Of a DNA stretch of 56,204 nucleotides, positions 7,219 through 45,654 are shown one piece after another. Made by a program: the position numbers and the translations under genes. Every line of letters starts with the position of its first letter. Positions within the stretch are counted from its first letter, which is position 1. Source of the stretch: an uncultured Planctomycetales bacterium (lineage in GTDB: Bacteria; Planctomycetota; Phycisphaerae; UBA1845; Fen-1342); NCBI GenBank assembly GCA_964647015.1, contig CAZYGM010000001.1, positions 1-56,204 of the forward strand, given 5' to 3'. The notes beneath the pieces were generated by a model. It saw only the letters and a program-made list of their open reading frames with translations. It did no database searches and was not told the origin of the DNA.

Positions 7219-7298
7219 GCCGGGGTTCGGAGGCTGAAGGGGGACGCTTCAGTAGCCCAGCACTTTCGCTGCCAGGGACTTCCGCCTATCATGCCGCT

Positions 7299-7776: not shown

Positions 7777-7780
7777 CACC

Positions 7781-8119
7781 ATGAAGATCCCCGAAGACGG
7801 TTACCTGCTGCGCATCTTCATCGGCGAGAGCGACAAGTGGCAAGGCCAGCCACTGTATGAGGCGATTGTCCGCAGGGCGCGGGAGCTGCACCTGGCCGGT
7901 GCGACGGTCTTGCGTGGGCCGATGGGCTTCGGGGCCCACAGCCGCATGCATACCACGAAGATTCTGCGGCTGTCGGCCGACCTGCCGATCGTAATCGAGA
8001 TCGTTGACAGCCAGGAGAAGCTGGACGAGTTGATGCCGTTTATCGACGAGGCGGTGCAGGAAGGGCTGGTGACGCTGGAGCGCGTGCGCGTGATCAAGTA
8101 CCGGGCCGGCTCCGCGTAG
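7781..8119 (+). CDS. DUF190 domain protein (fluoride-operon associated)
   Basis: MKIPEDGYLLRIFIGESDKWQGQPLYEAIV... is typical of DUF190. The ATG at 7781 is 5 nt after the crcB stop. The track ORF start at 7670 overlaps crcB out of frame. Confidence 0.8.
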   Translation: MKIPEDGYLLRIFIGESDKWQGQPLYEAIVRRARELHLAGATVLRGPMGFGAHSRMHTTKILRLSADLPIVIEIVDSQEKLDELMPFIDEAVQEGLVTLERVRVIKYRAGSA

Positions 8120-18402: not shown

Positions 18403-18600
18403 AGCAGGAGCATCACGCCTCGCGGAAGTGTCGGTAGCGTATGGAGCCGCCGGGCGCGTCAAGAGCGGGTGTCCCGCGTTCACGGCGGTGCGCCGGCCGC
18501 TGGTCGAACTGCCGGTGCTGATTGGGTTGGTGAACGTGGCATTGTGCTTTCCGAGACCGTACCTTCGGGACCCGACGGCACTTGTTGAGGAGGTGTGCGT

Positions 18601-21072
18601 ATGAACCGCCGGTTGACCGTTGCCGTTCCGTGCAGGTTGTTTGCGGGCTTGTTGGCGCTGGCGACTTTGAGCTCGGCGGTGGCCGGCCCGGCGTCGGCCG
18701 GCGGGCCTTCGCCGGGTGTCTGTCCGCCCTTCTATCTGCGCGACGAGGCGGGCCGCATCATCAACCCGATCAGCGGGGAGAATGCGGATAAGCCGTATTC
18801 GCCGAGGCAGACATGCGGTACGGCCGGCTGCCACGACTACGGCCTGATCACGCAGGGCTTCCATTTTCAGCAGGGGGCCGACGAGCAGCCGACGGCGGAC
18901 CAGGCGGCCCGCTACCAGTGGGTGAGTACGCCGGGGCTGTATGGCGGCACTTGGTGCTCGCCGGCGCCGCTCTACCGGTCGCTGGCGCCCAAGCAGAACA
19001 CGTCGGGGCGCACCATCGACATGACTTCGTTCGGGCTGATAACGGCCGGCTGCGCGAAATGCCACCCCGGCGGCGGACCGCTGGAGTACGATCGGGACGG
19101 ACAGCGCTATGACGAGCGGATGCGCGATCCGGCCGCCGGCCTGACGCCGGGCGGCGAGAACAGCTTCGACGGGGATTACTACAAGGCCCGCTGGTCCGAG
19201 ACGGGCGTTCTGGAGGCGGATTGCCTGCTGTGCCACCTGCCCGAGTACAGCTTCGCCGCCCGGAACAAGCAGCTCGACGCGCTGAACTTCCGCTGGGCGC
19301 CGACGGCCGGCGCGGGCGTGGCGCAAGTGACGGGGGCGCTGGCGAAGAACGAGGCCGTGACCGTTGCATATGACGCGCGCCAGTTCAACCCGGACGGCAC
19401 CTTCTCGCCGAACATGGTGGTTTCGCCGCGAAACGAGACCTGCTTGAGCTGCCACGCGCAGCCGGGCTGGAAGAAACGTGGGGCGAACTTCGGCGCACGG
19501 ACGGATGTGCATTTGCGCGCCGGCTTGCGCTGCGTGGACTGTCACGCGGCCGGGTCGCGCGCCTTTGACCCGCGCATCCAGGGCCGCGAGGTGCACCAGT
19601 TCGGCAAGGGCGACGACCCCGGCGGGCAGGTTCGGAACGATCTGGACAACACCATGCGCCAGTGCGCTGATTGCCACACCAGCGGTTACCTGGGGGCGCC
19701 GATTCCCGAGCACCGCGGCCTGCCGCCGCTGCACCTCGAGCTGCTGGCGTGTCAGGCGTGCCATATTCCCGAGCGGGTTGTGATGCCCATCCAGGTGCAG
19801 GCCAGCGACGTGTTCAACCCTGCGCCGCGGGTCGCGGTGGGCGGCAAGCAACTGTGGACCTTCTACGGCGTGGACGGGGAGTACCGCAATCACTACGGCT
19901 ACCTCGAGATGATGGGCTACGACGACAAGCCCACCGAGACGTTTCGTCCGATCCTGACGCTGTATAAGGGCAAGATCTATCCGGTGAACCGCGTCCACTC
20001 GGCCTGGCCCGGCATCGAGGAGGATGGCAAGCCCGGTCTCGGGCAGCCGCTGATGGGCGATATCCGCAGGATGTGGCTGGCGCACCAGGCTGATCCGACC
20101 AAGTATCCGCGGCTGGCCGAGATCACGGACGACAATGCCGACGGCATGATCGAGGTCAACCGGCCGGAGGAGATTGACGCGCTGATCGCGTCGGTCACGG
20201 AGATGCTGCACGAGACGAACTGGCCTATGGAGGGCAAGCGGGTCGTGTGGGTCATGAACGAGCGCGTCTATAGCTCAGGCACCGAGTACCGTGAGATACC
20301 GAAGCACGAGTGGGAGGCCTCGCCCTACGGCAACGTCCACAAGTACAACCACGACGTGTACCCGGCCAAGGCGGCCCTGGGAGCGAATGGCTGCGGCGAT
20401 TGTCACTCATCGCCGTCGCCGTTCTTCGACCAGCCGGTGCTGGCGCAGGCGTTCGGGACGGGTGACGGGCAGCCGCGCTGGAAGCCGAATTATGAGATCA
20501 TGGGGATCGGGTCGGTCTGGGTGCGCGCGGGGGGCTTCCGCGAGCAGACCGTCAAGGCGCTCATGTACGTGTTCCTGGCGGCGCTGGTCGTGACGTGGTT
20601 GGCGGCGGCGTTGCGCGACGCCGCCGTGCGCAGCGGGACCCTGACGCCCGGGGTGGCCCGGTGGGGCGCGGGCGTGCTGCTGGTGGGCTGCGTTTTCGGA
20701 GGGCTCCTGGCGGCGCGTACGCCGGACCTGCTGGGCTACATGCTGGCAAGCCGCAGCGCGGTCGACGGGGCGCACTTCTGGATTGCCATCGCGATCATGC
20801 TGGCGGCGGTCGTCACGGCGTTGCGGCCGCGCGGCGACCTGCCGCGCGCGGCGTCGGCCGTGACCGGGCTGTTGTGGGTGGTTCTGCTGCTGACCGGCCT
20901 GTGCGGCGCGCTGATGCTCTTCCAGCTCAAACCGCTGCCCGGTTGGCTGCGCCTGGCGTACACGGCCTTTGATGTCGGGCTGGTTATCGTGCTGGTGTTG
21001 ACGGTCGTGCTGCGGTTGCTGCGTCTGGCGGGCGCGACGCCGCCGAGCGCTGGGCGTGCGGCTGCGGGTTAA
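18601..21072 (+). CDS. Multihaem c-type cytochrome (7 CxxCH + 1 Cx4CH) fused to a C-terminal 5-TM domain
   Basis: Signal peptide present. Haem motifs: CGTAGCH, CAKCH, CLLCH, CLSCH, CVDCH, CADCH, CQACH, CGDCH. The last ~200 aa hold five hydrophobic helices. The ATG at 18601 is 7 nt after GAGGAGG. Confidence 0.85.
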   Translation: MNRRLTVAVPCRLFAGLLALATLSSAVAGPASAGGPSPGVCPPFYLRDEAGRIINPISGENADKPYSPRQTCGTAGCHDYGLITQGFHFQQGADEQPTADQAARYQWVSTPGLYGGTWCSPAPLYRSLAPKQNTSGRTIDMTSFGLITAGCAKCHPGGGPLEYDRDGQRYDERMRDPAAGLTPGGENSFDGDYYKARWSETGVLEADCLLCHLPEYSFAARNKQLDALNFRWAPTAGAGVAQVTGALAKNEAVTVAYDARQFNPDGTFSPNMVVSPRNETCLSCHAQPGWKKRGANFGARTDVHLRAGLRCVDCHAAGSRAFDPRIQGREVHQFGKGDDPGGQVRNDLDNTMRQCADCHTSGYLGAPIPEHRGLPPLHLELLACQACHIPERVVMPIQVQASDVFNPAPRVAVGGKQLWTFYGVDGEYRNHYGYLEMMGYDDKPTETFRPILTLYKGKIYPVNRVHSAWPGIEEDGKPGLGQPLMGDIRRMWLAHQADPTKYPRLAEITDDNADGMIEVNRPEEIDALIASVTEMLHETNWPMEGKRVVWVMNERVYSSGTEYREIPKHEWEASPYGNVHKYNHDVYPAKAALGANGCGDCHSSPSPFFDQPVLAQAFGTGDGQPRWKPNYEIMGIGSVWVRAGGFREQTVKALMYVFLAALVVTWLAAALRDAAVRSGTLTPGVARWGAGVLLVGCVFGGLLAARTPDLLGYMLASRSAVDGAHFWIAIAIMLAAVVTALRPRGDLPRAASAVTGLLWVVLLLTGLCGALMLFQLKPLPGWLRLAYTAFDVGLVIVLVLTVVLRLLRLAGATPPSAGRAAAG

Positions 21073-21210: not shown

Positions 21211-21744
21211 TCAGCGGGGGATCTGAATGCCGAGTTGCGCCGTGGTGAACAGCGCTTCGCAGCGGACGCCGGCGGATTCTATCGCCTCCCGGCCGCCCTC
21301 CTGACGGTCGATCGTGACAATGACCGCTGTCACGGTCGCGCCGGCGTCGCGCAGCGTCTTGACGGCCTCGATGGCCTGCCCGCCGCTGGTGGCGATGTCC
21401 TCGACGAGGACGACGCGTTCGCCGGGGTTCAGGCGGCCCTCGATGAGCTTGCCGGTGCCATAGCCGGCCTTCTTGGAGTTGCGGACGATGACGAAGGGTT
21501 TGCCGGTTTCCAGGGCCGCGGCCGCCGCCAAGGCAATGCCGCCCAGTTCGGCGCCGGCGATGCGGTCGACGTCGGCGTCGATGAGGCGAGCAAACCGCCG
21601 GGCCAGCGCGCGCAGCAGGTCCGGCTGCGTCTCGAAGAGGTACTTATCCAGGTAATACTTGCTCTTGCGGCCGGAGCGCAGCGTGAAGTCGCCCTCCAGC
21701 AGGGCGGCTTCCTTGAGGGCCTGGGCAAGTTCGGCGTCGGTCAT
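21211..21744 (-). CDS. pyrE: Orotate phosphoribosyltransferase
   Basis: PRPP loop VVLVEDIATSGGQ, and N-terminal GDFTLRSGRKSKYYLD. Confidence 0.95.
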   Translation of the reverse strand: MTDAELAQALKEAALLEGDFTLRSGRKSKYYLDKYLFETQPDLLRALARRFARLIDADVDRIAGAELGGIALAAAAALETGKPFVIVRNSKKAGYGTGKLIEGRLNPGERVVLVEDIATSGGQAIEAVKTLRDAGATVTAVIVTIDRQEGGREAIESAGVRCEALFTTAQLGIQIPR

Positions 21745-22343
21745 GGCTGGGGTTTCCTGGTGCGGGGTTTGACGGTCTTGCGGCGGACCGGCGGGGAATC
21801 GTCACGGCTGGTTGCGGCAGCTAAGTCCAGCAGCATGGTTACGTTATCGCGGCCCGATTGCAGCACGAGCTCGATCAGTGTGCCCATGGCGGCCAGGAAG
21901 CGCCGCAAGTCTTCCAGCCGCCGGGCGAATTCGCGGGCCTGCTCCCGATCGGCGGGCGGGGCGACCTTGCTGTACGGCGTCAGCATGCCGCAACAGCGGT
22001 CGATGGACTCGATGATGGGCTCGACTTCGCGGCGGCGGCGTTCGCGCACGATGGTTTCGAACATGTGCCAGACGTCGGTGTCGGCCTGGAAATACTCCTT
22101 GCGGTCACCGAGCTTGTGGATTCGGCGAACGAGGCCCCAGTCAACCAGGGCGCGCAGGTTCATGCTGGCGTTGCCGCGCGAGACATGGAGCTGGGCCATG
22201 ACGTCATCGGTGCAGAGCGGTTCGCCGGTGACGAACAGCAGTGCATGGATCTCGGCCATGGTGCGGTTTATACCCCAGTATCCGCCCATTTCGCCCCAGC
22301 GGCGTACGAGCAGGTGTTGGCATTCTTCCAGCGTGCTCGGCAT
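21741..22343 (-). CDS. GbsR/MarR-type winged-helix transcriptional regulator
   Basis: WGINRTMAEIHALLFVTGEPLCTDDVMAQLHVSRGNASMNLRALVDWGLV is typical of the GbsR/COG1510 family. Overlaps the pyrE start by 4 nt. Confidence 0.75.
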   Translation of the reverse strand: MPSTLEECQHLLVRRWGEMGGYWGINRTMAEIHALLFVTGEPLCTDDVMAQLHVSRGNASMNLRALVDWGLVRRIHKLGDRKEYFQADTDVWHMFETIVRERRRREVEPIIESIDRCCGMLTPYSKVAPPADREQAREFARRLEDLRRFLAAMGTLIELVLQSGRDNVTMLLDLAAATSRDDSPPVRRKTVKPRTRKPQP

Positions 22344-22564
22344 GACGGGCTCGCAAAGCTTTCAGAACTCTCGGAAAAGAAGATACTCGCCCGGCCGGTG
22401 ATTGCAAGCCCCGGCGTCCGGGTGCCCGGCGGCGACGACGCACCGGCCATGGGTTGAACCGGGCGGGGCAGGCGTCATAATGCGGGCACGGACGGGCCGC
22501 GATGAGCTGTCGGGCTGGTGCGGCCGGCCGGCGGCGATGCAAACAAGTCTGAAGGGAGCGACCG

Positions 22565-23122
22565 ATGGAACGTGGCAGATGGACAGTGCTCGGATTGGTG
22601 GCTTTGCTGGTGGGGTTGAGCGGCTGCAGCGGGATCACGATCACCTTCAAGATCGAGGACGTGATCAATGACGGCGGGCGTGGTGACAGGTTTAAGGAAA
22701 TGCTGGACGTGGATATCGTGTGCCTGTCGAGCAAGGACATTGAGCGTTTCCCTGAACTGGCGGAGGGCACGCTGAACTCCCGCGAGTGGTTCAGCGCCCG
22801 CGACGCACGCGAGCAGAAATACCGGGCCCTCGACGGCCAGATCTACGCGCTGCGCAGCGGCGAGGCCGGCTCCTACGATCTGCTCAAGGGTCCGGCCCTG
22901 GTCTCGGCGGCCAACACCGGTAAGCGCGAGGTGGTGGTGCGTGAATTGAAGCCGCCGCGGAAGATTCTGGGTGAGTCGGCCATTGTCGTCTTTGGCCGGT
23001 TTCACGACGGCACCGGTCGTCTGCTGGGGGCGCAGCCGGTGCTGATTCGTCCGCTGCCGCGCTCGGGTCGTATTGCCATCGGCGTGGGTCGCACGCAAAT
23101 GACGCTGCTGAAGGCCGAATGA
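22565..23122 (+). CDS. Lipoprotein, tentative TssJ-like T6SS membrane-complex component
   Basis: Lipobox LVGLSGC. 185 aa with beta-rich periodicity. Occupies the tssJ position immediately upstream of tssK. The assignment rests on position and size rather than on a clear motif. Confidence 0.45.
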   Translation: MERGRWTVLGLVALLVGLSGCSGITITFKIEDVINDGGRGDRFKEMLDVDIVCLSSKDIERFPELAEGTLNSREWFSARDAREQKYRALDGQIYALRSGEAGSYDLLKGPALVSAANTGKREVVVRELKPPRKILGESAIVVFGRFHDGTGRLLGAQPVLIRPLPRSGRIAIGVGRTQMTLLKAE

Positions 23123-23267
23123 CGCGGGGAGTTGCGCTGACGGTTCACGATGAGTCGGCGGCGGGGGAGTGTGTTGTAGCGCGACGAACGTGGTAGAATA
23201 CGGGTGACACGTGCCGGGCCGGTTTGCCAAGACGGGCGGCCTTCCGCTGCCCCGATGAGACACGATT

Positions 23268-24632
23268 ATGAAATTCTGGCCGGAAGTCCATTGGTCGGAA
23301 GGGCAGTTTCTGCGGCCGCACCATCTGCAGGCGGCGTACCGGCAGGCCGAGACCTTGCAGGCGGCGGCACTGCGCGGGCTGTGCCCCTACGACTGGGGTT
23401 TCGTCGCCCTCGATCTGGCGGAGGAGGCCATCCAGAACGGTGAGTTGGAGATTCGGGCCTGCGAGCTGCGCCTGAGCGACGGCAGCCACATCAAGGTCCC
23501 AGAGAACTGCACGATCCCCGCGCGCGAGTTCAAGCAGAAGCTGGAGCAGGCGGCCGGACCGCTGGATGTGTACGTGGGTGTTCCGGAAGTTCAGGCCGTG
23601 CGCGCCAACGTGCAGGCGCCCGGTGAGGATGTTGAGGGCCGGCCCGTCCGCTACACGATCGATCTGACCGAGCGGTACGACGAGAACACGGGTGAGAATC
23701 CGCAGCCGGTTGAAGTGCGGCGGATGCGGGGGGCGGTTTTCGTGGGGGCTGAGGATCGGGCCGGCTACACTTGCGTGCGGCTGGGACGGCTGGAGCGGTC
23801 TGCCGCCGGACCGAAGCTGGTGCGGGAAGTGTTACCGCCGCTGCTGCGGCTGCAGGCCTGGCCGGCGTTGTGTGCCGAGGTCGAACGGCTGTGGCACGAC
23901 ATTCGCGACCGCATGGAGCAACTGGGCGCCGACGCCGCCGCCCGCGGGCTCACCTTCGCGACGGCCTCAGCGGGTGATCTGGAGCAACTGCTGAAGCTAC
24001 TGGCGCTTAATGAACTGGCGGCCCAGTTCGGCGTGTTGGCGAGTTCGCCGGAGCTGCACCCGCACGCGCTGTACGTGGCCTTGTGCACCGGCGTCGGCAA
24101 GGTGGCGTTGTGGGACGACACGCGCCGGCTGGGCGAGCTGCCCGAGTATGACCACGGTGATTGCGGGCCGGCCTTGTACGAGCTTAGCGACCGGCTGCGC
24201 ACGCTGGTGGATCGCATGATCCCGCGGGATTACGAGGAGCGGCTGTTCGAGGTGCGCGAGGGCGGCTACGTGGTTGACCTGGACTACGAGTGGCTGACGC
24301 CCAACCATGAGTTGTTCCTGGGGATTCGCGGTCCCAAGCAGTTGCAGGAGGTGGAGCAACTGCTGGGCGGGTTGAATTTCAAGATCGCCTCGCCGCGCGA
24401 CGTAAAGGCGTTGTTCGAGGGCCGCTTACGGGGTTTGGAGCGGCAGTACGCTGGGCCGGTGCCGGGTCTGCCGCAGAGTCACGATCAGTTCTACTTCCGG
24501 ATATCGCGCACGCCGCCCTACTGGGCCAATTGCGAGCGTGATCGTGGTATCGCGATTCGGATGCCGCCGCAGGACATGCCCAAGCTGGGTGCGTTGCGGC
24601 TGTCGTTGTTTGTGAAGCGCCTGAAGGGATAA
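23268..24632 (+). CDS. tssK: Type VI secretion baseplate/membrane-complex adaptor TssK
   Basis: 454 aa. The N-terminus MKFWPEVHWSEGQFLRPHHLQAAYR matches the family-typical opening (..W.EG.FL.P.H.Q). It is followed by YDWGF..LDL and RYTIDL..YDENTGE blocks. Confidence 0.85.
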   Translation: MKFWPEVHWSEGQFLRPHHLQAAYRQAETLQAAALRGLCPYDWGFVALDLAEEAIQNGELEIRACELRLSDGSHIKVPENCTIPAREFKQKLEQAAGPLDVYVGVPEVQAVRANVQAPGEDVEGRPVRYTIDLTERYDENTGENPQPVEVRRMRGAVFVGAEDRAGYTCVRLGRLERSAAGPKLVREVLPPLLRLQAWPALCAEVERLWHDIRDRMEQLGADAAARGLTFATASAGDLEQLLKLLALNELAAQFGVLASSPELHPHALYVALCTGVGKVALWDDTRRLGELPEYDHGDCGPALYELSDRLRTLVDRMIPRDYEERLFEVREGGYVVDLDYEWLTPNHELFLGIRGPKQLQEVEQLLGGLNFKIASPRDVKALFEGRLRGLERQYAGPVPGLPQSHDQFYFRISRTPPYWANCERDRGIAIRMPPQDMPKLGALRLSLFVKRLKG

Positions 24633-24641
24633 GCGGGAGGA

Positions 24642-25457
24642 TTGGGCTTGGAGTCCAAGGCGACGGTATATGACCTGGCGGTACAGGTGGTGCTGTACCT
24701 GGTGGCGTTTCAGCGGCGCGTGGCGGAGGGCGAGTCGCCGACGTACGACGACACGTGCCGCGAGGTGCTGCGGCTGCTGAAGGACCTGGACGAGCAGAGT
24801 CACCGGACCGAGGGGCTGCACGACCACTGGGTGGCGGCGCGCGTGCCGCTGGTGTACCTGGTGGACGAGGTGATGATCCTGAACTGCCCCTGGGAGCACC
24901 GCAACGAGTGGGCCAACAACTGCCTGGAGGTCGCCCTGCTGGGGCACCCACAGGCGCTGGGCGGCGAGAACTTCTACACTGAGTGTGAGGAAGCGCTGCG
25001 CGAGCTGGAAGTGGCGGAGCGGCACGAGCGGCGCGACTACGCGGCGCGCGTCGAGTTGATGATGGTGTATTACGTGGCGCTGCAGATGGGCTTCAAGGGT
25101 CGCTATGCGCTCGACCTGGACGCCTGGCGCGAGTTCAAGGCCCATCTCTTCTCGAAATTGCCGTCTTACGCGCAAACGCGCACCAAGCAGCTTTTCCCCG
25201 AGACTGACCAGCACACCGTGCTGCTGGATCCCAACTACGAGCCCGTGACGCGCCTGCTCTACGTGTTCCTGGCGTTTCTCTTCATCGTGGCGCTCTACTT
25301 CGGGGCGACCTGGGGTTACTGGAGCGACCTGACATCCGATCTGGCCGGCCATGTCAAAACGGTGGGCGCGGTGCCCGCGGCGGTCGGCGGGGAAGCTGCT
25401 CGCGAGCCGGCGGCGGAACCAGACGCGGCTGGGGCCGGTCGGGGCGGCGCAAACTAG
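24642..25457 (+). CDS. tssL: Type VI secretion membrane protein TssL (DotU family)
   Basis: DotU-like cytoplasmic domain (YYVALQMGFKGRY) and a single C-terminal TM LLYVFLAFLFIVALYFGATWGYW. The periplasmic tail is short and has no OmpA/PG-binding domain. The start may be TTG 24648. Confidence 0.8.
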   Translation: MGLESKATVYDLAVQVVLYLVAFQRRVAEGESPTYDDTCREVLRLLKDLDEQSHRTEGLHDHWVAARVPLVYLVDEVMILNCPWEHRNEWANNCLEVALLGHPQALGGENFYTECEEALRELEVAERHERRDYAARVELMMVYYVALQMGFKGRYALDLDAWREFKAHLFSKLPSYAQTRTKQLFPETDQHTVLLDPNYEPVTRLLYVFLAFLFIVALYFGATWGYWSDLTSDLAGHVKTVGAVPAAVGGEAAREPAAEPDAAGAGRGGAN

Positions 25458-25504
25458 GAAATCGGCAAGGCCAGGGCCCAGAGGCGGCGCCGGAGGCAGA
25501 TAAG

Positions 25505-28500
25505 ATGGCCGAACGCAGCTTGAACGCAGTATTGATGAAATTCTTCAACCTGCCGCCGGCTCTGCGCATGATCCTGGCGGTGGCCGGGTTCGGCTCGCTG
25601 GCATCCATCATGTTTTTCCTGACGCGCGGCTTTTTCCAGACGCGTTCGGGGAAGATATGGATTCTGGTGATCCTGCTGGGCGGCGCGGCGGTCTTTGGGC
25701 TCGTCTATCTCATTGTGCGTCTGTTCCGTGGCCGGCGCTCCTCGCAGCTCAGCGGCGCGCTGGAATCGCAGGGGCCGACGCGTGGTGACATCGCCGAGCA
25801 GGAGCGGCTGTATCGCGAGAAGTTCGCCGGCAAGCTGAACGACCTGCGTGCGAACGGGCTGTCCGTGTATCGGCTGCCGTGGTTCGTGCTGATGGGTGAG
25901 CCCGGCTGCGGCAAGACGGCCAGCCTGATTCACTCAGGGCTGGATTTCCCGCTGGGCAAGGACGAGGTGCCCGGCTTCGGCGGCACGCGCAACTACAACT
26001 GGTGGTTCACGAACGACGCCGTTGTGCTCGATACGGCGGGGCGCATCGCCTTCCAGGAAGAGGGCACGACTGATCGCGTCGAGTGGGAATATTTCCTGAC
26101 GCTGATGAAACGCCACCGCCCGCGCTGCCCGCTGAACGGGGTGATCCTGGCGTTGCCGGCCGACAAGCTGCTGCGCGACTCGGTGGAGGAGCGCGCCCAG
26201 AAGGCCACCGTGCTGCGGGAGCGGCTGCGGCAGATCCACCAGGCGCTGGGCGTGCGTTTCCCGACGTTCGTGCTGGTGACCAAGATGGACCTCGTGGGGG
26301 GCTTCAGCGAGTTCTTCGAGGACGTCCGCGTCGACCTGCAGCAGCGCAACCAGATGTTCGGCTGGTCGCGCCCGGGCGAGTTCGAGCAGGCTTTCGACAC
26401 GGCCGAGTTCCTGCCGGCGTTCGACGACGTGCACCATCGACTGCGCGACTGGTCGATGCGCTATCTCCAGCGCAAGGCCGCCGATCCGGAGCTTGGCCTG
26501 GTAGTGACGTTCCCGGAGGCCTTTCACGAACTGCGCGGCCCGCTGAACGATTACATCAGCACCGTCTTCCAGAAAAGCCCGCTGCTCGAGCCGCCCTTCT
26601 TCCGGGGCTTCTACTTCACTTCCGCCATGCAGGAAGGCGCGCCGATCTTCGACGTGTTCACGCGCGCGCACCCGGGGCTGACGCTGCCGGAACGCGCGGT
26701 GCGCGCCGTCGATTCAAAGGCTTTCTTCATACACGACTTCTATGAACGCAAGGTCTTTGCCGAGAAAGGGTTGGTGTTCCGGTCGGCCCAGCACGTGACG
26801 CTCAACCGGCGCATGCGGCGACTGGTGTGGGTCGGTTCGGCCGCCATGCTAGTCCTGATGCTGGCGCTGTTCGGCTTCGGTTACTTCGGCGTGAGCGACC
26901 TGGTGACGCAGCCCCAGGCTGATTGTGAACAGGCGGTCAAGAGCATCGGCCAGGCGCGGACGGGTGCGCCGACGTACACCCGGCTGGCTGAGAACCTCGA
27001 CTTGGCCGAGCGCCTGCAGCAACACTACGAAGCGTACGACCGGCCCTGGACCGGCTTACGGGCCCGCTCGCTGTACATCGGCGCGAATATAGCGCAGCCG
27101 CGCGACGCCGTCCGGAATATTCACGCGCGCTTCGTGTTGGAGACGATCCTCCGCCCGGTCATCCAGGAAGCTGAGCTGCAGCTTGGCTCCGTGGATGAGT
27201 TGGGCCGCTCGCCGGAGCAGTACCTGGCGGCCCTCGAAACCTACGCCGGCTGGTACGGCGAGCTGGTGGGTCAGCCGCGCGGCTGGCTGGATCAGGAGCA
27301 GGTGGGCCAGCGCGTTACCGAGGTTAAGGCACTGTTGACGTTTCTAAGCACCGGCGACGACACCCAGCAGCGCGCGCTCCGGCAGATTAATGCCGCGTTG
27401 GAGTCACCGGCGGGCGGGCGACGCCAGTTTGCCCGTCACGTCCTGGACAACACGCTGGGCCTCGAAGCGAACGCCATGACGGCCGTCCTGACAGCCGCCA
27501 TTCAGCATCTGACAGACCGCTGGATGCCGCTGACGCGGCTGGTGCCCGTGCCGCAGGACGATTTCCTGCGCTACTGGTCAGACCTGGCGGCGCACCTGGG
27601 CGCCGTGCGGACCCATTACACCGAGATTCTGGCACTGGCAGGCGCTTTCCGACAGGCGGACGAGTTCGATAGCGCTGCCGAGCGCTTCATGACTCTGACT
27701 GAGGGCGCGGAGTACCTGGGCCGCGCGACCACGCCGCCCAAGCCGGGGACAGTGGCGCGCGCGATGTTCGATTTGCGAGCGTTCCTGAGTGAACGCGAAG
27801 TGCCGCAGACGGAAGCTCGGCGGATTCGGCGCTTCGCGGACCAACTGGCCTGGATGGCCGGCCGCTGGGAGGCCGAGTTCGGACGGGTGCGGACGGCCCT
27901 GACCGCCGGATCACCGAGCGAACAGGAACGTCCGCAGCGCATCGTGTTTGAGGCTGTGGACGAGGCCCGCCGCCAACTGCACGCGCGCTACCAGACCAGC
28001 TTGCAGGAGCTGCGCGCGCAGTTGCAGGTTCCGGCTGAGCTGGAGCCCGCCGACTTCTACGAGCAGACCACGCGGTTGCTTACGCTGGTGGAGCAGCGCG
28101 CGGCCCTGCCGACGCTCGATGAGCAGCGGGCGGCGATCCGGCTGGCGGAACACCCGTTCGGGCGTTACGGCGAACTCGTCACGTACCTCACTGAGCTCCG
28201 CGGCATTGTGGACGCGGCGGGCACGGGTGATTTCCTTGATGATTTGCGGCGTTGGCCGGAGCTGTTGTCCACAGGGGGTACGGCGCTGCCGACGTCGCAG
28301 GCGTTGCGGACCTGGTTCGAGGGTGCCGGCGCGGGCAGGTCGCCGGGTGAGGAGGCGATCCGGCAATGGTCCGGGTTGGCAGAGCACCCGTTCTGGCGCG
28401 CGGCCGACCTGTATGGTCTGGCTGAGAGCATATGGCGGGGACATCAGCAGCGGACGGTCGGAACGCTACTGGAGCGGATGGAGGCGCGCTGTGCCGAGGT

Positions 28501-30358
28501 TGCGGGTGCGCGGGACTTGCCGGGGTTGGCGCGGCTGATGCCGGGATTCGACCAGCCGTCGGACGCCTTGCCGTTTGAGCGCCACGTGTCAGCAGCCGTT
28601 GTTGAGAAACCGCGCGAGGTCCTGCGGCAGCCCGAGCCGGTGAGGGAGAAGCAGGAGGAGGACGAGGACGATTGGCGCCAGTGGCGCCGCCAGCCGGCGG
28701 CGGCCCCGGCCGAGCGCGCCGCGGAGGTCACGCCTACACCGAGCGCGCCCGCGCCGACCGAGCAGTCGGCCGAGCGGCCGCCGCTGGTGCAATATCACAC
28801 CCGCGCTTTGCTGCACGAAACGGCCAAGGCGTACGGGGCGGTCTGCGCGACGCTGGGGGCGCATGGACAGCGCGGACAGCGCCTGCGGGGCGCCCTGGAT
28901 ACGGCGGCCAACGCCTATTTTGATCGCTACTTCCTGGATTGGAACGCCGCCTACGACGACTACCTAGTGTTGCTCGACGCGACGACGCTGGGGTTCCTAG
29001 ACAAGTGTCGCGCCGGCACGTTGGATTGGCCGGCGTTTCAGCAGGAGTTGAGCCGAACCGGGCGGGACATGACGGTGGAGTTCGCATCACGGCTGGAAGC
29101 GCTGGTGCGCGAGGTCGTGCTCTATCACGAGGTCTTTGAAGATGAAGGCCTGTACCGACACATCGAAGGGCGGCTCCAGAGCCTGGGCGTGCGGAATGAC
29201 CTGCGCAGCCGGCTGGACGACTTTGGACGGGCGGCGGATCAGCTCATGCGTCGTCGTATTGATCCGGTGAGCGCGCTGAGCGATTCCGTGGCGGAGGCGT
29301 GGCAGGGGTATTTGCGGCACATTGAGCGGACCGGGGCGGATCCCAAGGGGGCCGCCGCGCCGCCCAGCCGGGCAGCGCTTGAGACGGCCCTGACCGAGAT
29401 GATTGCGTGGCGCCGCATGCAGCCGGCGGACGTGCGGCTGTTCGCGCCGCTGCTGGATCTTGCCGCACATGGCGAGGTGCTGTTGCGCCACCACCTCGAA
29501 CGGGAGTTGGTCAGGCTGGCGGCCGACCGTCGCGGCCGGTACCCGCTTCTCGCGGACGCGCACGACCAGGATCCCGCCGGTCAGCGCCTGGCCCGGCTGG
29601 CCGAGAGCGCCCTGCCGGTCGGCGACCTGCTCGCCTTCCTGCGCTCCGCGGCGCGGTATCGGACCGATTACGGCACGCTGCTGACAGCCCTGCGGCGCGG
29701 CGATGCCGACCCATACGTCACAATGCTGGATCATTGCGCGGCGTGGGTCCAGTTCCTGTACGGTGATCAGCTCGGACGGTTGCGCGAGGAGGAACCGGCG
29801 CCGTTGCGTGTGAAGTGGGCGATCGCGCGGCGCGAAGGTACGACCAGCGCCGGCAATTTCTATAACCGGCTGACGATCACGCTCCCGCTGCTATCAAAGA
29901 CCGGTTACGACCCGGTTGGTCCGGTGGACGAGGAAGCGCGCAGTGGCCGGCTGGGGTCGCTACCGCCAAGCGCCACGGAGGCCCTGGCTGACCGGGACTA
30001 CGACTACCGCTGGAGCCTGGTGAAGCGCTCGGGCCAGGATTACCTGCCGCCGGCCGTGCGCGTCTGGGACAAGAACCCGCAGCTTGCGGGACCGGAGCAG
30101 GTACGGGCGGCGTGGCAGTTGCCAGGCAACCCCTGGTCGCTACTGCTTTTGGTCGGTGCTGATCCGGCCAACCGGCTCAGCGGCGGCGAATGGGTTATCC
30201 CCGTCATGATGAAGTTTGGCGACGAGACGATCGGCTTTGATATTGCGGTTCGTTTCGAGCGGCCGTTCCCGGGACCGATTGAGCCGGCACCCGATCCCGG
30301 CCCGCCGCCCGCGATGGAGGCGGCCCAGAAGTACATGTCCCCGGTGGCAGGCGGATAA
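25505..30358 (+). CDS. tssM: Type VI secretion membrane protein TssM (IcmF family), unusually long (1617 aa)
   Basis: TM hairpin at the N-terminus, Walker A LMGEPGCGKTA (25895-25918), a third TM near aa 440-465, then about 1150 aa predicted periplasmic. GGAGG 8 nt upstream of the ATG. Confidence 0.85.
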   Translation: MAERSLNAVLMKFFNLPPALRMILAVAGFGSLASIMFFLTRGFFQTRSGKIWILVILLGGAAVFGLVYLIVRLFRGRRSSQLSGALESQGPTRGDIAEQERLYREKFAGKLNDLRANGLSVYRLPWFVLMGEPGCGKTASLIHSGLDFPLGKDEVPGFGGTRNYNWWFTNDAVVLDTAGRIAFQEEGTTDRVEWEYFLTLMKRHRPRCPLNGVILALPADKLLRDSVEERAQKATVLRERLRQIHQALGVRFPTFVLVTKMDLVGGFSEFFEDVRVDLQQRNQMFGWSRPGEFEQAFDTAEFLPAFDDVHHRLRDWSMRYLQRKAADPELGLVVTFPEAFHELRGPLNDYISTVFQKSPLLEPPFFRGFYFTSAMQEGAPIFDVFTRAHPGLTLPERAVRAVDSKAFFIHDFYERKVFAEKGLVFRSAQHVTLNRRMRRLVWVGSAAMLVLMLALFGFGYFGVSDLVTQPQADCEQAVKSIGQARTGAPTYTRLAENLDLAERLQQHYEAYDRPWTGLRARSLYIGANIAQPRDAVRNIHARFVLETILRPVIQEAELQLGSVDELGRSPEQYLAALETYAGWYGELVGQPRGWLDQEQVGQRVTEVKALLTFLSTGDDTQQRALRQINAALESPAGGRRQFARHVLDNTLGLEANAMTAVLTAAIQHLTDRWMPLTRLVPVPQDDFLRYWSDLAAHLGAVRTHYTEILALAGAFRQADEFDSAAERFMTLTEGAEYLGRATTPPKPGTVARAMFDLRAFLSEREVPQTEARRIRRFADQLAWMAGRWEAEFGRVRTALTAGSPSEQERPQRIVFEAVDEARRQLHARYQTSLQELRAQLQVPAELEPADFYEQTTRLLTLVEQRAALPTLDEQRAAIRLAEHPFGRYGELVTYLTELRGIVDAAGTGDFLDDLRRWPELLSTGGTALPTSQALRTWFEGAGAGRSPGEEAIRQWSGLAEHPFWRAADLYGLAESIWRGHQQRTVGTLLERMEARCAEVAGARDLPGLARLMPGFDQPSDALPFERHVSAAVVEKPREVLRQPEPVREKQEEDEDDWRQWRRQPAAAPAERAAEVTPTPSAPAPTEQSAERPPLVQYHTRALLHETAKAYGAVCATLGAHGQRGQRLRGALDTAANAYFDRYFLDWNAAYDDYLVLLDATTLGFLDKCRAGTLDWPAFQQELSRTGRDMTVEFASRLEALVREVVLYHEVFEDEGLYRHIEGRLQSLGVRNDLRSRLDDFGRAADQLMRRRIDPVSALSDSVAEAWQGYLRHIERTGADPKGAAAPPSRAALETALTEMIAWRRMQPADVRLFAPLLDLAAHGEVLLRHHLERELVRLAADRRGRYPLLADAHDQDPAGQRLARLAESALPVGDLLAFLRSAARYRTDYGTLLTALRRGDADPYVTMLDHCAAWVQFLYGDQLGRLREEEPAPLRVKWAIARREGTTSAGNFYNRLTITLPLLSKTGYDPVGPVDEEARSGRLGSLPPSATEALADRDYDYRWSLVKRSGQDYLPPAVRVWDKNPQLAGPEQVRAAWQLPGNPWSLLLLVGADPANRLSGGEWVIPVMMKFGDETIGFDIAVRFERPFPGPIEPAPDPGPPPAMEAAQKYMSPVAGG

Positions 30359-30418
30359 GCGTCTGTGGCGTGTCGGTGGCGTGAGCACGCGGCTGCCGGC
30401 CAGGGTTGAGGCGCGACG

Positions 30419-31408
30419 ATGAGTCGAATGGCGCGGTTTCTGGGACGGCTATTCTCGGGGCAGTCCGAGACCGGCGAGTTGCTGCTGCGTGCCTACGGCA
30501 AGCTGCCGATGTACGCGGAATACCGCCGACTGGAGGTTTCGCCGGGAACCGCCACGACTTTCTCGCAATGGCTTGATGATGGGCGCCTGGCGTGGATTAA
30601 GGCGACCGTGGACGGCGTGCGTGGGGCGCCGCGCGGGGCCCGCGTGGTCCTGCAATGGCCCGACAGCCGCGAATGCGTGGTAGCGAACATCTGGGATAGC
30701 CGCGACAGCCTGGGGCGCTCGTTCCCGTTTGCGTTCTTCGTAGTCTGCCCGGGCGAGTGGCTCGGCAAGGACTGGGCCCAACGCTGGGTCACGTGCGCGA
30801 CGATTCACAAGCAGTTGGACGAGGCGCACACACGCCTGGGGGCGCTTGGCATGGGCGGCGACTTCTACCGGGTGTATCGACAGCAGGCCATCCTGGCGAA
30901 TGTTTCCGACCTCGAGCAGCGCGTGGAGGCGCTGCGCCGCGCGGCCGACGGATTCGACCTGGCGGAGTGGTTCGCCGCGGCGGAGTTGGCGGGGCAATCA
31001 GCCGGAACGTGGTTTGCTGGCGTGGCCCGGCGGGCCGGTCAATGGCGTTCCGGGGCGGCGGCGCTGGCTGAGTTGGGAGTGAGCGTCCCGCTGGCCGCTG
31101 GCTTCTCCCCTGAGGCTCAGGGCGTGCTGTGGTTGGACTGGCTCGCGGCGCTGGCCGGGCCGGCTGCCCGGCCGCCGTCGTTAATCGGGCCGGGCGCTGA
31201 CGCCGCCGGGGCGGCACGCCTGCATGTCATCTTTCGCCCCCCGCTGCCGGGCGATTTCCAACTGCTCACCGAGGACGCCGCCGGCTACGGCTACGTTGAT
31301 CATCTGACAAACGGGCCGAATGCCGGGACGGACGCGGCCGCCGGGATCGGCGTCGCCGCGCCGGCCGGCAGCCTGCAGGACGCTTTGACGCGGCTGACGG
31401 CGCGCTGA
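30419..31408 (+). CDS. tagF: T6SS-associated protein TagF (DUF2094/ImpM family) with Ala-rich C-terminal extension
   Basis: The N-terminal LLLRAYGKLPMYAEYRRLEV resembles the TagF GKLP..GDF opening. It sits directly after tssM, as in canonical loci. Confidence 0.65.
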   Translation: MSRMARFLGRLFSGQSETGELLLRAYGKLPMYAEYRRLEVSPGTATTFSQWLDDGRLAWIKATVDGVRGAPRGARVVLQWPDSRECVVANIWDSRDSLGRSFPFAFFVVCPGEWLGKDWAQRWVTCATIHKQLDEAHTRLGALGMGGDFYRVYRQQAILANVSDLEQRVEALRRAADGFDLAEWFAAAELAGQSAGTWFAGVARRAGQWRSGAAALAELGVSVPLAAGFSPEAQGVLWLDWLAALAGPAARPPSLIGPGADAAGAARLHVIFRPPLPGDFQLLTEDAAGYGYVDHLTNGPNAGTDAAAGIGVAAPAGSLQDALTRLTAR

Positions 31409-43890: not shown

Positions 43891-45063
43891 TCAGTCATCC
43901 ACGTGGGCATTTCTCGGCGGAACCCACAAGACCATACCCTCACGGATGCTGTCCGGATCACGTATCTGATCACGGTTGACGTGATAGATCTCCTCCCAGC
44001 GCGCCGCGTCCCCAAGCAGACGTTCCGCGATGCGCGTCAGCGTGTCGCCGCGCTGCACTACATAGGGCCTCATCGGCGGCGTAGTCGCCACACGCGCCGG
44101 AACAGTCGTCGGTGACTGGGCCGCCGCGCGGGCCTCCGGGCCAATGCCCGCCGGCGGCTGCGCCCCGGCCCCGGCTTCCGCTTGATCCCCGTCGCTGCCG
44201 GCACGCGTCTCCGGCGCCAAGTCCGCGGCAGGTAGTCGTGCACCGCTGCGCGCTGCGGCGTCAGTGTTCTCCTGGGGCACTGCATCCGGCGTACTTTCAT
44301 CCGGCCAGGCACACGCCATCCAGTACTCCGCCAGCCATTCCTGAAGAGCCGCCAATCCGGCGTCGGTCCAGAAGCACTCGGCGGCCCGGGCAACCGCATC
44401 TTGCGGAGCAGCGCCATCACCTGGCTCGACCACAGGCGTCCGCGCTGCTGGTCGGCGTCCCGGCGGAGCCGCGCTGGACGCTGCGGACACAGCCGCGGCA
44501 GGTGGGCCCGCGCCTGGCGGCGCCGGGGCCCGAGGCGGCTCCGCGACGGTGCGTGGCGGCGCGACCGGAACAGGGCGCTGCGCAGCCACCGCCCGTCTGG
44601 GCTCGGGCGGCACGGCGCACGATGCCTCTGCCAGGCACTCGCCGGCAACCGTGTACACACGAAACGTGGCCGACACCGGTCGACTGCCCGGCCGCGTTGG
44701 CAATGCCGTCAGCGGGATTGCAAGCGGAAGGTCCTTGAAGGTGGCCGGTGATTCTGCCACAAGGATGGTTCGGCTGGCCGCCACGGCGCCGGATCGGTTC
44801 TGATAGCGCCCATCCGCCGATCGGACCGGCCTGTCCGCCGCGTCATGCAGACTGACTTCGTATATGAGCTCTTCGCCAACCAGGCCCTCAGTATCAAGCG
44901 TGACCGTGAAAGCCAGCGCGCCGCGGTCCTGACCGTGCTGCACGCGCTGACATACGGGATCGGTGAGCCGGGCTTGTTGCAGGGCGCACCCGCCCGTCAG
45001 GCTCAGCAGCACACCCCCGCATCCCCACAGAAGGACTCGTCTCATGCGCTCGCGTCTGGGCAT
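43891..45063 (-). CDS. LysM-domain lipoprotein
   Basis: The ATG at 45063 (GGAGG upstream) gives ...LLSLTGGC (lipobox). There is a long Pro/Ala-rich linker and a C-terminal LysM domain: YVVQRGDTLTRIAERLLGDAARWEEIYHVNRDQI. Confidence 0.75.
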   Translation of the reverse strand: MPRRERMRRVLLWGCGGVLLSLTGGCALQQARLTDPVCQRVQHGQDRGALAFTVTLDTEGLVGEELIYEVSLHDAADRPVRSADGRYQNRSGAVAASRTILVAESPATFKDLPLAIPLTALPTRPGSRPVSATFRVYTVAGECLAEASCAVPPEPRRAVAAQRPVPVAPPRTVAEPPRAPAPPGAGPPAAAVSAASSAAPPGRRPAARTPVVEPGDGAAPQDAVARAAECFWTDAGLAALQEWLAEYWMACAWPDESTPDAVPQENTDAAARSGARLPAADLAPETRAGSDGDQAEAGAGAQPPAGIGPEARAAAQSPTTVPARVATTPPMRPYVVQRGDTLTRIAERLLGDAARWEEIYHVNRDQIRDPDSIREGMVLWVPPRNAHVDD

Positions 45064-45654
45064 GTCCTGCCTCCATCCTGGCCTGCGGGTGTCTGCGTAA
45101 CCTGTCGGCTGCCGCCAGTACCGCACACGTTTGGCCGCTGTTGAGACGCCATCCTGACGGCCACATCCCTGGCAGAGCCGCGTGCGACACGCCGGCAAAA
45201 CCACCTAGATAGCGCAATCATAGTCCACCGACCCGCTCTCGGCGAACAAGGACGGCAGCCGAGGCAGCCGAAGCCGGCCTCGGCGTCTGAGTAACTCCTG
45301 CCGAAGCAAGACGGATGCGGTTCCGTTGCCTCGCGGTCGCCCAGCGCAGCACCGGAGCGGATCTTCATCCAACTGAATAAAGAGGCCCCCGGACGGCCGG
45401 ACGCCTCAGAAGCGCCGTGCCATCGGCCCCGGTACACAATGGTGTCCGACCAAGCCGACACGCGACGAGCCAAGTCTCGCCGACCGCGCCTACGAGACCC
45501 GTCCGGCTGCTAACATCCGAATCTCAACGCCCGAGTTCAGCACCAGTGTGCTCACGGCGGCGCGCCTCCGTGCATGCCGAGCGAACACAATCGCCACTCC
45601 GTCGCAGACATACACGCTGGACAATACGAGCGGCCCCCGCTTCGCGCTGCTGCG

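What the first reader, a model, noticed from the sequence alone, without database searches (positions are those of the whole stretch)
22565..31408. Stand-alone membrane-complex arm of a type VI secretion system (tssJ-like, tssK, tssL, tssM, tagF) with no contractile machinery nearby
Five co-directional genes are separated by gaps of 145, 9, 47 and 60 nt. In order they encode:
- a lipoprotein;
- TssK (MKFWPEVHWSEGQFLRPHHLQ opening);
- TssL/DotU (single C-terminal TM);
- TssM/IcmF (TM hairpin, Walker A GEPGCGKT, third TM, large periplasmic part);
- TagF (GKLPMYAEY).
This is exactly the gene order of the membrane-complex arm of canonical T6SS-i loci, for example tssJ-tssK-tssL-tssM-tagF in P. aeruginosa H1. 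Where the divergent sheath/tube/baseplate arm normally sits (tssA/B/C, hcp, tssE/F/G, clpV, vgrG, PAAR), this locus has gbsR-pyrE. Downstream is glyQS. I recognise none of the missing core components anywhere in the 56 kb.
Two explanations fit. The T6SS may be split across the genome, which is poorly documented for Planctomycetota. Alternatively, a TssJLM-TssK envelope complex has been retained or co-opted without a contractile tail, which would be a new kind of system.
Basis: partly seen in the sequence, partly recalled or inferred. Interest (0 to 1): 0.85.

Follow-up and report, generated by a model that had tools for sequence, protein, structure and literature searches.

The report
Detached membrane-anchor operon of a T6SS
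This is the envelope-anchoring half of a bacterial "type VI" injection machine, kept as a separate operon across a whole clade of Phycisphaerae; the firing half is most likely encoded elsewhere in the genome, so it is an unusual layout of a lineage-specific variant rather than a new kind of machine.

Summary
Five co-directional genes (22565-31408) encode:
- a lipoprotein;
- TssK;
- TssL/DotU;
- a 1617-aa TssM-like protein;
- a weak TagF-like protein.

No other T6SS gene lies in the window, which is a whole 56-kb contig.

The module is not quite canonical. Only residues ~20-580 of TssM resemble known TssM. The ~1150-aa periplasmic part and the lipoprotein match no TssM or TssJ family.

The same five genes stand alone in every locus where their flanks could be read, among about 30 loci carrying this TssK type. 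These come from one Phycisphaerae clade that includes cultured strain RAS1. A divergent GbsR-type regulator usually sits beside them. The genes are under strong purifying selection (dN/dS 0.04-0.14).

The nearest relatives (TssK 37% identical) sit in contiguous J-K-L-M-TagF-A-B-C-Hcp-E-F-G-ClpV-VgrG clusters in other Phycisphaerae. Some of those clusters are themselves broken up. The earliest-branching member of the stand-alone clade has hcp 3.5 kb from tssK-tssL. The part of TssK that binds TssF/TssG is as conserved here as in the tail-linked relatives.

The best reading (~0.7) is the membrane-complex operon of a dispersed, lineage-specific T6SS. I could not scan a whole genome, so a tail-less complex remains possible (~0.1).

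The parts
21741..22343 (-). GbsR/CudC-like MarR-family regulator, transcribed divergently from the module. Its stop overlaps the start of pyrE (21211-21744) by 4 nt. It is the probable transcriptional regulator of the module.
   Evidence: NF047500 CudC scores 57.6 bits, below its cut-off; MarR_2 and HTH_5 match weakly. An orthologue sits immediately upstream and divergent in 17 related loci as well as the window (18 intergenic regions).
22344..22564 (.). 221-nt divergent intergenic region. It holds the motif TTTCAGAA (22360-22367) and the only sigma-70-like site in 12 kb (TTGAAC-16-CATAAT, 22454-22481, + strand, about 84 nt before the lipoprotein gene).
   Evidence: TTTCAGAA lies 14-22 nt from the regulator start in 16 of 18 loci, allowing at most one mismatch; it lies further away in L011 and L031. 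For the promoter-like site the scan expects about 1 by chance, so this is weak.
22565..23122 (+). Outer-membrane-type lipoprotein of 185 aa, in the position of TssJ. It is a TssJ analogue by position, size and lipidation signal; homology to TssJ is not shown.
   Evidence: Lipobox LSG-C21, with G20 and C21 invariant in 13 orthologues including the sister lineage. No Pfam, NCBIfam or PDB hit. hhalign against a canonical TssJ aligns only the lipobox. dN/dS 0.07.
23268..24632 (+). TssK, 454 aa. It is the baseplate adaptor that links the membrane complex to TssF/TssG.
   Evidence: TIGR03353 245 bits (cut-off 100) and PF05936 6e-66. The AF2 model (pLDDT 68) has 15 TssK chains as its top PDB hits, with E down to 1e-22; the C-terminal head matches 5m2y with target-normalised TM 0.73. 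dN/dS 0.04.
24642..25457 (+). TssL/DotU, 271 aa, short form. It has a cytoplasmic domain, one C-terminal TM (205-223) and an Ala/Gly-rich tail, with no peptidoglycan-binding domain.
   Evidence: PF09850 73 bits (cut-off 27); TIGR03349 62 bits, below its cut-off. Hydropathy. dN/dS 0.10.
25505..30358 (+). TssM-like protein, 1617 aa. It has a TM hairpin (22-40, 53-71), a cytoplasmic NTPase domain with Walker A GEPGCGKT (131-138), TM3 (440-458), and then a lineage-specific periplasmic region of about 1150 aa with a Pro/Glu-rich linker near 1030-1095.
   Evidence: PF14331 220 bits; TIGR03348 351 bits (below the 388 cut-off), residues 50-580 only. No IcmF-related, IcmF_C or IcmF_helical hit at E<=5 in 11 orthologues. 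hhalign gives a full-length match to the sister-lineage TssM (E 2e-98) but only residues 19-532 to canonical TssM. No PDB sequence hit. dN/dS 0.12.
30419..31408 (+). TagF-like protein, 329 aa, with TagF_N-like residues ~24-110. It is a probable post-translational brake on assembly.
   Evidence: PF09867 21 bits and TIGR03373 23 bits, both below cut-off. A profile of 12 orthologues hits PDB 9t0n, 'Type VI secretion-associated protein', at E 1.5e-5. It is the positional equivalent of TagF_N proteins in L015 and L019. dN/dS 0.14.

Best explanation
The five genes are the membrane-complex operon of a type VI secretion system whose genes are dispersed over several loci.

Proposed mechanism:
- The lipoprotein (outer membrane), TssM (inner membrane plus a very long periplasmic arm) and TssL (inner membrane) build the trans-envelope channel.
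- TssK trimers dock on the cytoplasmic faces of TssL and TssM. They recruit a TssEFG-VgrG baseplate, on which an Hcp tube and TssBC sheath polymerise and fire.
- TagF holds assembly in check.
- The operon is probably driven from the 221-nt region it shares with a divergent GbsR-type regulator.
- The tail and baseplate genes (tssA, B, C, hcp, E, F, G, clpV, vgrG) lie elsewhere in the genome.

The system belongs to a Phycisphaerae-specific T6SS lineage. Its TssM has a periplasmic domain of about 1150 aa, unrelated in sequence to the canonical IcmF-related and IcmF_C domains and about 400 aa longer. Its lipoprotein is not recognisably TssJ. This may be an adaptation to the planctomycetal envelope.

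Shown: gene identities, conservation, selection, the relationship to contiguous clusters, and hcp beside tssK-tssL in a basal relative. Inferred: presence of tail genes in this particular genome, the regulator link, and the envelope-adaptation idea.
For: (1) Identity of the parts.

(2) Function is maintained:
- All five ORFs are intact wherever the sequence reaches them, in about 30 loci of this clade.
- The clade comprises 59 TssK clusters at 54-98% identity.
- dN/dS is 0.04-0.14 against a 98%-identical relative.

(3) The closest outgroup (TssK 36-37% identical, against 23-24% to canonical) has the same module, including the long TssM that is homologous over its full length. There it is contiguous with TssA-TssB-TssC (L014; L025). 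L042 shows TssM-TagF followed by TssA, B, C, Hcp, E, F, G, ClpV and VgrG.

(4) Fragmentation is common in this class:
- The L025 cluster stops after tssC.
- The complete genome CP070744.1 (L024) has tagF-A-B-C-hcp-E-F-G-clpV-vgrG with only a 791-aa C-terminal TssM piece, and no J, K or L within 10 kb.

(5) L044/L045 carry TssK and TssL that are 56% identical to the window's. This TssK is the earliest branch of the stand-alone clade. An hcp gene lies 3.5 kb downstream (PF05638, 136 bits), and tssM and tagF are not adjacent.

(6) The TssK shoulder that binds TssF/TssG (residues 1-190) is as conserved within the stand-alone clade (0.64-0.70 mean pairwise identity) as within the tail-linked sister clade (0.63-0.68). 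The ratios of divergence among TssK, TssL, TssM and TagF are alike in both clades.

(7) An exhaustive search of cluster representatives found one TssB lineage, P0346, that is 43-53% identical to sister-type TssB but only 36-39% to canonical. That is the divergence expected for a co-diverged tail gene. I could not link it to these genomes.
Against: - I did not see a single tail or baseplate gene in any genome that carries the full five-gene module.
- No such gene lies within 10 kb in any locus. tblastn over 529 kb of these loci found nothing.
- No listed TssB or TssC hit shares a longest-contig length with a stand-alone TssK. Those contigs reach 3.42 Mb, 499 kb and 270 kb.
- NCBI accession blocks of 9 annotated genomes with this TssK do not overlap those of 10 annotated genomes with sister-type TssB.
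- No RAS1_ or AMXMBFR47_ name appears among the 120 listed TssB hits or the 120 listed TssC hits.

These negatives are weak. The lists show 120 of about 330 hits. The word-indexed search demonstrably missed relatives: the L025 TssK is absent. The Hcp of L044 shows that tail proteins of this clade may be only 34-39% identical to the queries I had.
Confidence: 0.7

Rival explanations
1. Tail-less envelope complex. In the crown of this clade the sheath, tube and baseplate genes have been lost. The lipoprotein-TssL-TssM complex with TssK and TagF has been kept for another job, such as a trans-envelope conduit or scaffold.
For: - The module always stands alone, in about 30 loci.
- It is under strong purifying selection.
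- No tail gene was traced to any genome with the full module.
- Its conserved partner is a GbsR-type regulator next to housekeeping genes, not T6SS genes.
Against: - TssK has no known role other than joining the membrane complex to TssFG. Its TssFG-binding shoulder is as constrained here as in the tail-linked sister clade.
- TagF is retained; in studied systems it is known only as a brake on T6SS assembly (my own knowledge of the family).
- A basal clade member has hcp beside tssK-tssL.
- Dispersed T6SS loci are seen in related genomes.
- The negative searches were incomplete.
Confidence: 0.12
2. The module serves a contractile apparatus that is not its co-evolved partner. This could be a separately acquired T6SS tail cluster or another phage-tail-like system encoded elsewhere.
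For: No TssC of intermediate identity (55-70%) to the sister type was found. All other listed TssC hits group with canonical TssC.
Against: - The TssC search was clearly incomplete. It returned about 15 sister-type clusters, whereas the TssB search listed at least 120.
- TssK-TssFG interfaces are specific, and a mismatched tail is not known to dock.
- A candidate TssB lineage of intermediate identity exists.
Confidence: 0.08
3. Decaying remnant of a lost T6SS, with no present function.
For: Only that tail genes are absent nearby.
Against: - The 1600-aa ORF and its four partners are intact across a clade that has diverged to 54% TssK identity.
- dN/dS is 0.04-0.14, lower than for neighbouring glyS and a cytochrome gene.
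Confidence: 0.03
4. An IcmF/DotU pair belonging to a type IVB (Dot/Icm-like) secretion system rather than a T6SS.
For: TssM and TssL are homologues of IcmF and DotU. There are weak hits to NF038226 and NF038228.
Against: - Those hits score 36 and 25 bits against cut-offs of 1000 and 50.
- A bona fide TssK and a TagF-like gene are in the operon.
- The sister lineage is fused to sheath genes.
- No Dot/Icm gene lies in the window.
Confidence: 0.01

Closest known systems
Canonical T6SS-i membrane-complex arm, tssJ-tssK-tssL-tssM-tagF. The P. aeruginosa H1 example is from my own knowledge; locus L015 fetched here has the same order.
   Same: The gene order is the same (SciN-VasE-DotU-IcmF-TagF_N in L015). 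TssK, TssL and the N-terminal 530-580 residues of TssM are homologous.
   Different: - TssK is only 23-24% identical.
- The TssM periplasmic domain is about 1150 aa, against about 750 aa, and has no detectable similarity.
- The lipoprotein is not a PF12790 member.
- In canonical loci the tail genes are adjacent; here they are not.
Contiguous 'Phycisphaerae-type' T6SS clusters found here (L014, L025, L042; annotated by NCBI only as generic T6SS genes)
   Same: These clusters have the same lipoprotein family, TssK (37%), TssL (32-35%), full-length homologous long TssM (hhalign E 2e-98) and TagF-like protein (25-27%).
   Different: There the module runs straight into tssA-B-C-hcp-E-F-G-clpV-vgrG. 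In the window's clade it ends after tagF and is flanked by housekeeping genes.
Acinetobacter T6SS with a non-canonical membrane complex (PMC10564176) and the Bacteroidota T6SS-iii membrane complex (PMC10781749)
   Same: Both are precedents for T6SSs whose envelope-spanning part departs from the TssJLM model while the tail is conserved. I rely on the titles and abstracts listed.
   Different: Those systems lack or replace TssJ, or all of TssJLM. Here TssL and the cytoplasmic half of TssM are conventional, and only the periplasmic half and the lipoprotein differ.
T4BSS IcmF-DotU
   Same: These are homologous inner-membrane proteins that work without a contractile tail. They are the only known precedent for a tail-independent role of this pair.
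   Different: No TssK or TagF accompanies them. The family models score far below cut-off here.

Membership tests
TssK (TIGR03353 / PF05936) | Full-length match above the curated cut-off | tested here: met
   245 bits against a cut-off of 100, covering residues 6-435; PF05936 E 6e-66.
TssK (TIGR03353 / PF05936) | Shoulder-neck-head fold | tested here: met
   The top 15 Foldseek PDB hits for the AF2 model are TssK chains (E 1e-22 to 2e-10). The head domain matches 5m2y with target-normalised TM 0.73. The model is of moderate quality, pLDDT 68.
TssL / DotU | DotU cytoplasmic domain plus a single C-terminal TM | tested here: met
   PF09850 scores 73 bits (cut-off 27). TIGR03349 scores 62 bits, below its 90 cut-off. 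TM at 205-223.
TssM (TIGR03348) | N-terminal TM hairpin, Walker A NTPase domain and third TM | tested here: met
   PF14331 220 bits; GEPGCGKT at 131-138; TMs at 22-40, 53-71 and 440-458.
TssM (TIGR03348) | Periplasmic IcmF-related (PF06761), IcmF_helical and IcmF_C (PF06744) domains; whole-protein score above cut-off | tested here: not met
   TIGR03348 scores 351.5 bits, below 388.15, and matches residues 50-580 only. None of these domains is hit at E<=5 in 11 orthologues. hhalign to canonical TssM stops at residue 532.
TssJ (PF12790 T6SS-SciN) | Sequence or fold similarity to the TssJ lipoprotein | tested here: not met
   No hit in Pfam, NCBIfam or PDB, alone or as a profile. hhalign aligns only the lipobox. 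The single-sequence AF2 model was unusable, pLDDT 34.
TssJ (PF12790 T6SS-SciN) | Lipoprotein encoded immediately upstream of tssK | tested here: met
   The lipobox G-C is invariant in 13 orthologues, and the position is conserved in both clades.
TagF (PF09867 / TIGR03373) | TagF N-terminal domain above cut-off | tested here: inconclusive
   Scores are 21 and 23 bits, below the cut-offs of 27 and 41. The profile hit to PDB 9t0n has E 1.5e-5. The gene is the positional equivalent of TagF_N proteins.
Complete T6SS-i (13 core components) | tssA, B, C, E, F, G, hcp, vgrG and clpV in the same locus | tested here: not met
   None lies in the 56-kb contig or within 10 kb in about 30 related loci.
Complete T6SS-i (13 core components) | The same components anywhere in the genome | not testable with these tools
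   No whole-genome access. The indirect look-ups were inconclusive.
T4BSS IcmF/DotU | Match to NF038226 / NF038228 above cut-off | tested here: not met
   36.5 bits against a cut-off of 1000, and 25 bits against a cut-off of 50.

The most novel reading that the evidence does not exclude
In the crown of this Phycisphaerae clade, a TssJ-like/TssL/TssM envelope complex with TssK and TagF is maintained under strong selection in genomes that have lost sheath, tube and baseplate. It would then be a T6SS membrane complex working without a contractile tail.
Probability: 0.1. Interest if true: 0.85.

Novelty: new variant of a known kind. Interest (0 to 1): 0.42.

Why it matters
If the favoured reading is right, Phycisphaerae carry their own T6SS lineage. 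No paper in the searched library describes it.

This lineage has a non-canonical periplasmic TssM arm about 400 aa longer than usual, and a novel lipoprotein. That is a natural test case for how a T6SS spans the unusual planctomycetal envelope.

It also shows that locus-based detectors, which require co-located core genes, will miss or mis-score T6SSs in this class, because the genes are dispersed.

Strain RAS1 is cultured, so the question of tail or no tail can be tested directly.

If the minority reading is right, this would be the first T6SS membrane complex with a tail-independent role.

Tried and rejected
- **Exact look-up of the window's TssK:** not on record.
- **Looking for tail genes of the same genomes.**
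  - A TssC N-terminal query gave sister-type hits at 71-84%. All the rest group with canonical TssC, and two I checked (L015, L018) are ordinary complete loci.
  - The TssB query listed only sister-type hits at 69% or above.
  - Matching of NCBI accession blocks found no shared genome.
  - The exhaustive search of cluster representatives, followed by a name look-up, returned unnamed proteins. P0344 proved to be another contiguous cluster.
- **Viral-contig scans:** scans with the L044 Hcp and a TssC profile found nothing relevant.
- **Structure of the lipoprotein:**
  - The single-sequence model was useless, pLDDT 34.
- **PDB sequence searches with TssM:** the profile, the N-terminal half and the C-terminal half all returned nothing.
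- **Literature:** the papers that came up attribute T6SS to Planctomycetacia or to the phylum as a whole, and a genomic survey of the class Phycisphaerae does not mention secretion systems.
- **Readings rejected:** the remnant reading, on the selection data, and the T4BSS reading, on the scores and the presence of TssK.


Full report
**Observation**

The gaps are 145, 9, 47 and 60 nt. All five have the high third-position GC of real genes in this 66% GC contig.

Profile scans give:
- a full-length TssK (TIGR03353, 245 bits against a cut-off of 100; PF05936, 6e-66);
- a DotU/TssL (PF09850, 73 bits);
- a TssM-like protein with a strong IcmF-related_N domain (220 bits);
- a weak TagF_N match (21-23 bits, below cut-off);
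- nothing for the first ORF.

These are the lipobox LSG-C21, the TM hairpin, Walker A GEPGCGKT, the third TM of TssM, the single C-terminal TM of TssL, and GKLPMYAEY in the last protein.

An AlphaFold model of TssK, built with 11 homologues, has pLDDT 68. It retrieves TssK structures as its 15 best PDB matches, with E down to 1e-22. It also matches the isolated TssK head domain with TM 0.73.

A profile of 12 orthologues of the last protein hits PDB 9t0n, 'Type VI secretion-associated protein', at E 1.5e-5.

**The rest of the window**

Pfam scans of about 50 further ORFs found no T6SS family. What they did find:
- an arsenic-type cluster and a multihaem cytochrome;
- pyrE and a GbsR/CudC-like regulator;
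- glyS, ApbE, an epimerase and transketolase;
- DUF11 repeat proteins, leuS and a tyrosine recombinase.

tblastn with TssA, B, C, E, F, G, Hcp, ClpV, VgrG and Fha from canonical and Phycisphaerae loci also found nothing. The window is a complete 56,204-bp contig of an unannotated NCBI MAG (member P0333).

**Where the module departs from the canonical system**

- TIGR03348 matches only residues 50-580 of the 1617-aa TssM, and the score is below the curated cut-off.
- None of 11 orthologues hits IcmF-related, IcmF_helical or IcmF_C, even at E<=5.
- hhalign of the orthologue profile against a canonical 1240-aa TssM stops at residue 532.
- PDB sequence searches with the TssM profile and both halves of the protein are empty.
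- The lipoprotein has an invariant G-C lipobox in 13 orthologues, but no similarity to TssJ by Pfam, NCBIfam, PDB profile search or hhalign. The only structure model I could make was unusable.

So 'TssJ-like' rests on position, size and lipidation only.

**Distribution of the module**

A genome scan with TssK returned 11 Planctomycetota/Phycisphaerae MAGs at 60-98% identity. The protein search returned 59 clusters at 54-98%. One of them is RAS1_22620 of the cultured strain 'Phycisphaerae bacterium RAS1', on a 3.42-Mb contig. A metagenome scan added 14 loci.

Wherever the sequence extends far enough, the five genes are present in the same order, and no tail gene lies within 10 kb.

In most loci a GbsR-like regulator lies divergently upstream, usually followed by pyrE. 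Where pyrE has moved away (L004, L005, L009, L046), the regulator stays. This makes the regulator, rather than pyrE, the likely functional partner.

The shared intergenic region carries TTTCAGAA 14-22 nt from the regulator start in 16 of 18 loci; it lies further away in L011 and L031. In the window it also carries the only sigma-70-like site in 12 kb, which is not more than chance would give.

Against the 98%-identical relative, dN/dS is:
- TssK: 0.04
- lipoprotein: 0.07
- TssL: 0.10
- TssM: 0.12
- TagF: 0.14

All five are lower than the two neighbouring genes measured, glyS (0.29) and the multihaem cytochrome (0.19). The module is therefore functional, not a relic.

**Nearest relatives**

After a gap, the TssK search found a second group at 34-39% identity. 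Canonical TssK is only 23-24% identical.

In that sister group the same module is followed directly by TssA, TssB and TssC (L014; L025). The module there consists of:
- a lipoprotein of the same family;
- TssK and TssL;
- a 1600-aa TssM that aligns with the window's over its full length (hhalign E 2e-98);
- a TagF-like protein.

L042 shows the remainder of the cluster: TssM-TagF followed by TssA, B, C, Hcp, E, F, G, ClpV and VgrG. TssB of this type is common in Phycisphaerae, with at least 120 clusters at 69-88% identity. So the long-TssM module belongs to a working, lineage-specific T6SS. The stand-alone clade is an offshoot in which the break falls between tagF and tssA.

**Is the tail elsewhere?**

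I could not scan a genome, so the evidence is indirect.

For a split system:
- Fragmentation is common in this class. The L025 cluster ends after tssC.
- The complete genome CP070744.1 has tagF-A-B-C-hcp-E-F-G-clpV-vgrG preceded only by a 791-aa C-terminal piece of TssM, with no J, K or L within 10 kb.
- L044/L045 carry TssK and TssL that are 56% identical to the window's and 37% to the sister's. This TssK is the earliest branch of the stand-alone clade in an NJ tree.
  - These loci have hcp (PF05638, 136 bits) 3.5 kb downstream, and tssM and tagF are not adjacent.
  - That Hcp is only 34-39% identical to sister-type Hcp. Tail proteins of this clade would therefore have been hard to spot with my queries.
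- The TssF/TssG-binding shoulder of TssK is as conserved within the stand-alone clade (0.64-0.70) as in the tail-linked sister clade (0.63-0.68).
- The exhaustive search of representatives shows one TssB lineage, P0346, that is 43-53% identical to the sister type and 36-39% to canonical. This is a candidate for the missing partner, but I could not link it to these genomes.

Against a split system:
- No TssB or TssC hit shares a contig with a stand-alone TssK.
- None of the listed hits is named RAS1_ or AMXMBFR47_.
- The accession blocks of 9 annotated genomes with this TssK and 10 annotated genomes with sister-type TssB do not overlap.

These negatives are weak. The lists are truncated, and the word-indexed search demonstrably misses relatives.

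**Conclusion**

The most likely reading (about 0.7) is the membrane-complex operon of a dispersed, Phycisphaerae-specific T6SS with a non-canonical periplasmic TssM arm and lipoprotein. A tail-less, co-opted complex remains possible (about 0.1) and would be remarkable. A single profile scan of the RAS1 genome would decide it.

The searched literature attributes T6SS to Planctomycetacia and to the phylum generally. It says nothing about Phycisphaerae loci or this arrangement.

Noticed in passing
L044:10001-15376 (JANRJD010000001.1) and L045: A minimal scattered arrangement: dapF, tssK, tssL, two paralogous unknown genes on the other strand (387 and 289 aa), then hcp and a 105-aa ORF. No lipoprotein, tssM or tagF is adjacent. 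This is the earliest branch of the stand-alone TssK clade.
   Followed up: partly
L024:4854-7229 (CP070744.1, complete 5.67-Mb Phycisphaerales genome): A 791-aa ORF corresponds only to the C-terminal half of the long TssM (residues 819-1599 of the sister TssM, 31% identity). It sits in front of tagF-tssA-B-C-hcp-E-F-G-clpV-vgrG, with a sigma-54 activator upstream and no tssJ, K or L within 10 kb. It could be a rearrangement breakpoint inside tssM or a split gene.
   Followed up: partly
window:22360-22367 and the equivalent position in 17 loci: TTTCAGAA is conserved 14-22 nt from the start of the GbsR-like regulator gene in 16 of 18 loci and lies further away in L011 and L031. A second box, GCTTGATTTTGC, lies about 75 nt in for 12 of 18 loci, but not in the window. 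Either could be an operator or promoter element.
   Followed up: partly
L007:4594-5004 (-): A second, short (137-aa) TagF-like ORF lies about 5 kb upstream of the module in one MAG.
   Followed up: no
window:7290-8119: A fluoride riboswitch (RF01734, 55.9 bits) lies at 7290-7354, followed by crcB (7393-7776) and a DUF190 gene (7670-8119).
   Followed up: no
window:11197-18402: An arsenic-type detoxification cluster: ArsP permease, DGC-domain protein, thioredoxins, DsbD_TM, FMN reductase, LMW phosphatase (ArsC-like), SAM methyltransferase (ArsM-like) and an SBF/Acr3-like transporter. An 825-aa multihaem cytochrome follows at 18595-21072.
   Followed up: no
window:6046-7218: A topoisomerase VI subunit A / Spo11-type gene (TOP6A Toprim domain, 1.6e-59), which is uncommon in bacteria.
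   Followed up: no
window:38149-43009 and 43891-45204: Three consecutive DUF11/CARDB-repeat surface proteins (266, 523 and 767 aa), with a LysM-domain protein nearby.
   Followed up: no
window:54714-56202: A Flp/Fap pilin-like ORF, and a XerC/D-type tyrosine recombinase gene that is cut by the contig end.
   Followed up: no
P0346: The representative of a TssB cluster that is 43-53% identical to Phycisphaerae-type TssB but only 36-39% to canonical TssB. It is a candidate for the tail lineage that pairs with the stand-alone module. Its only record is a 2.3-kb ENA contig, and I could not fetch the context.
   Followed up: partly
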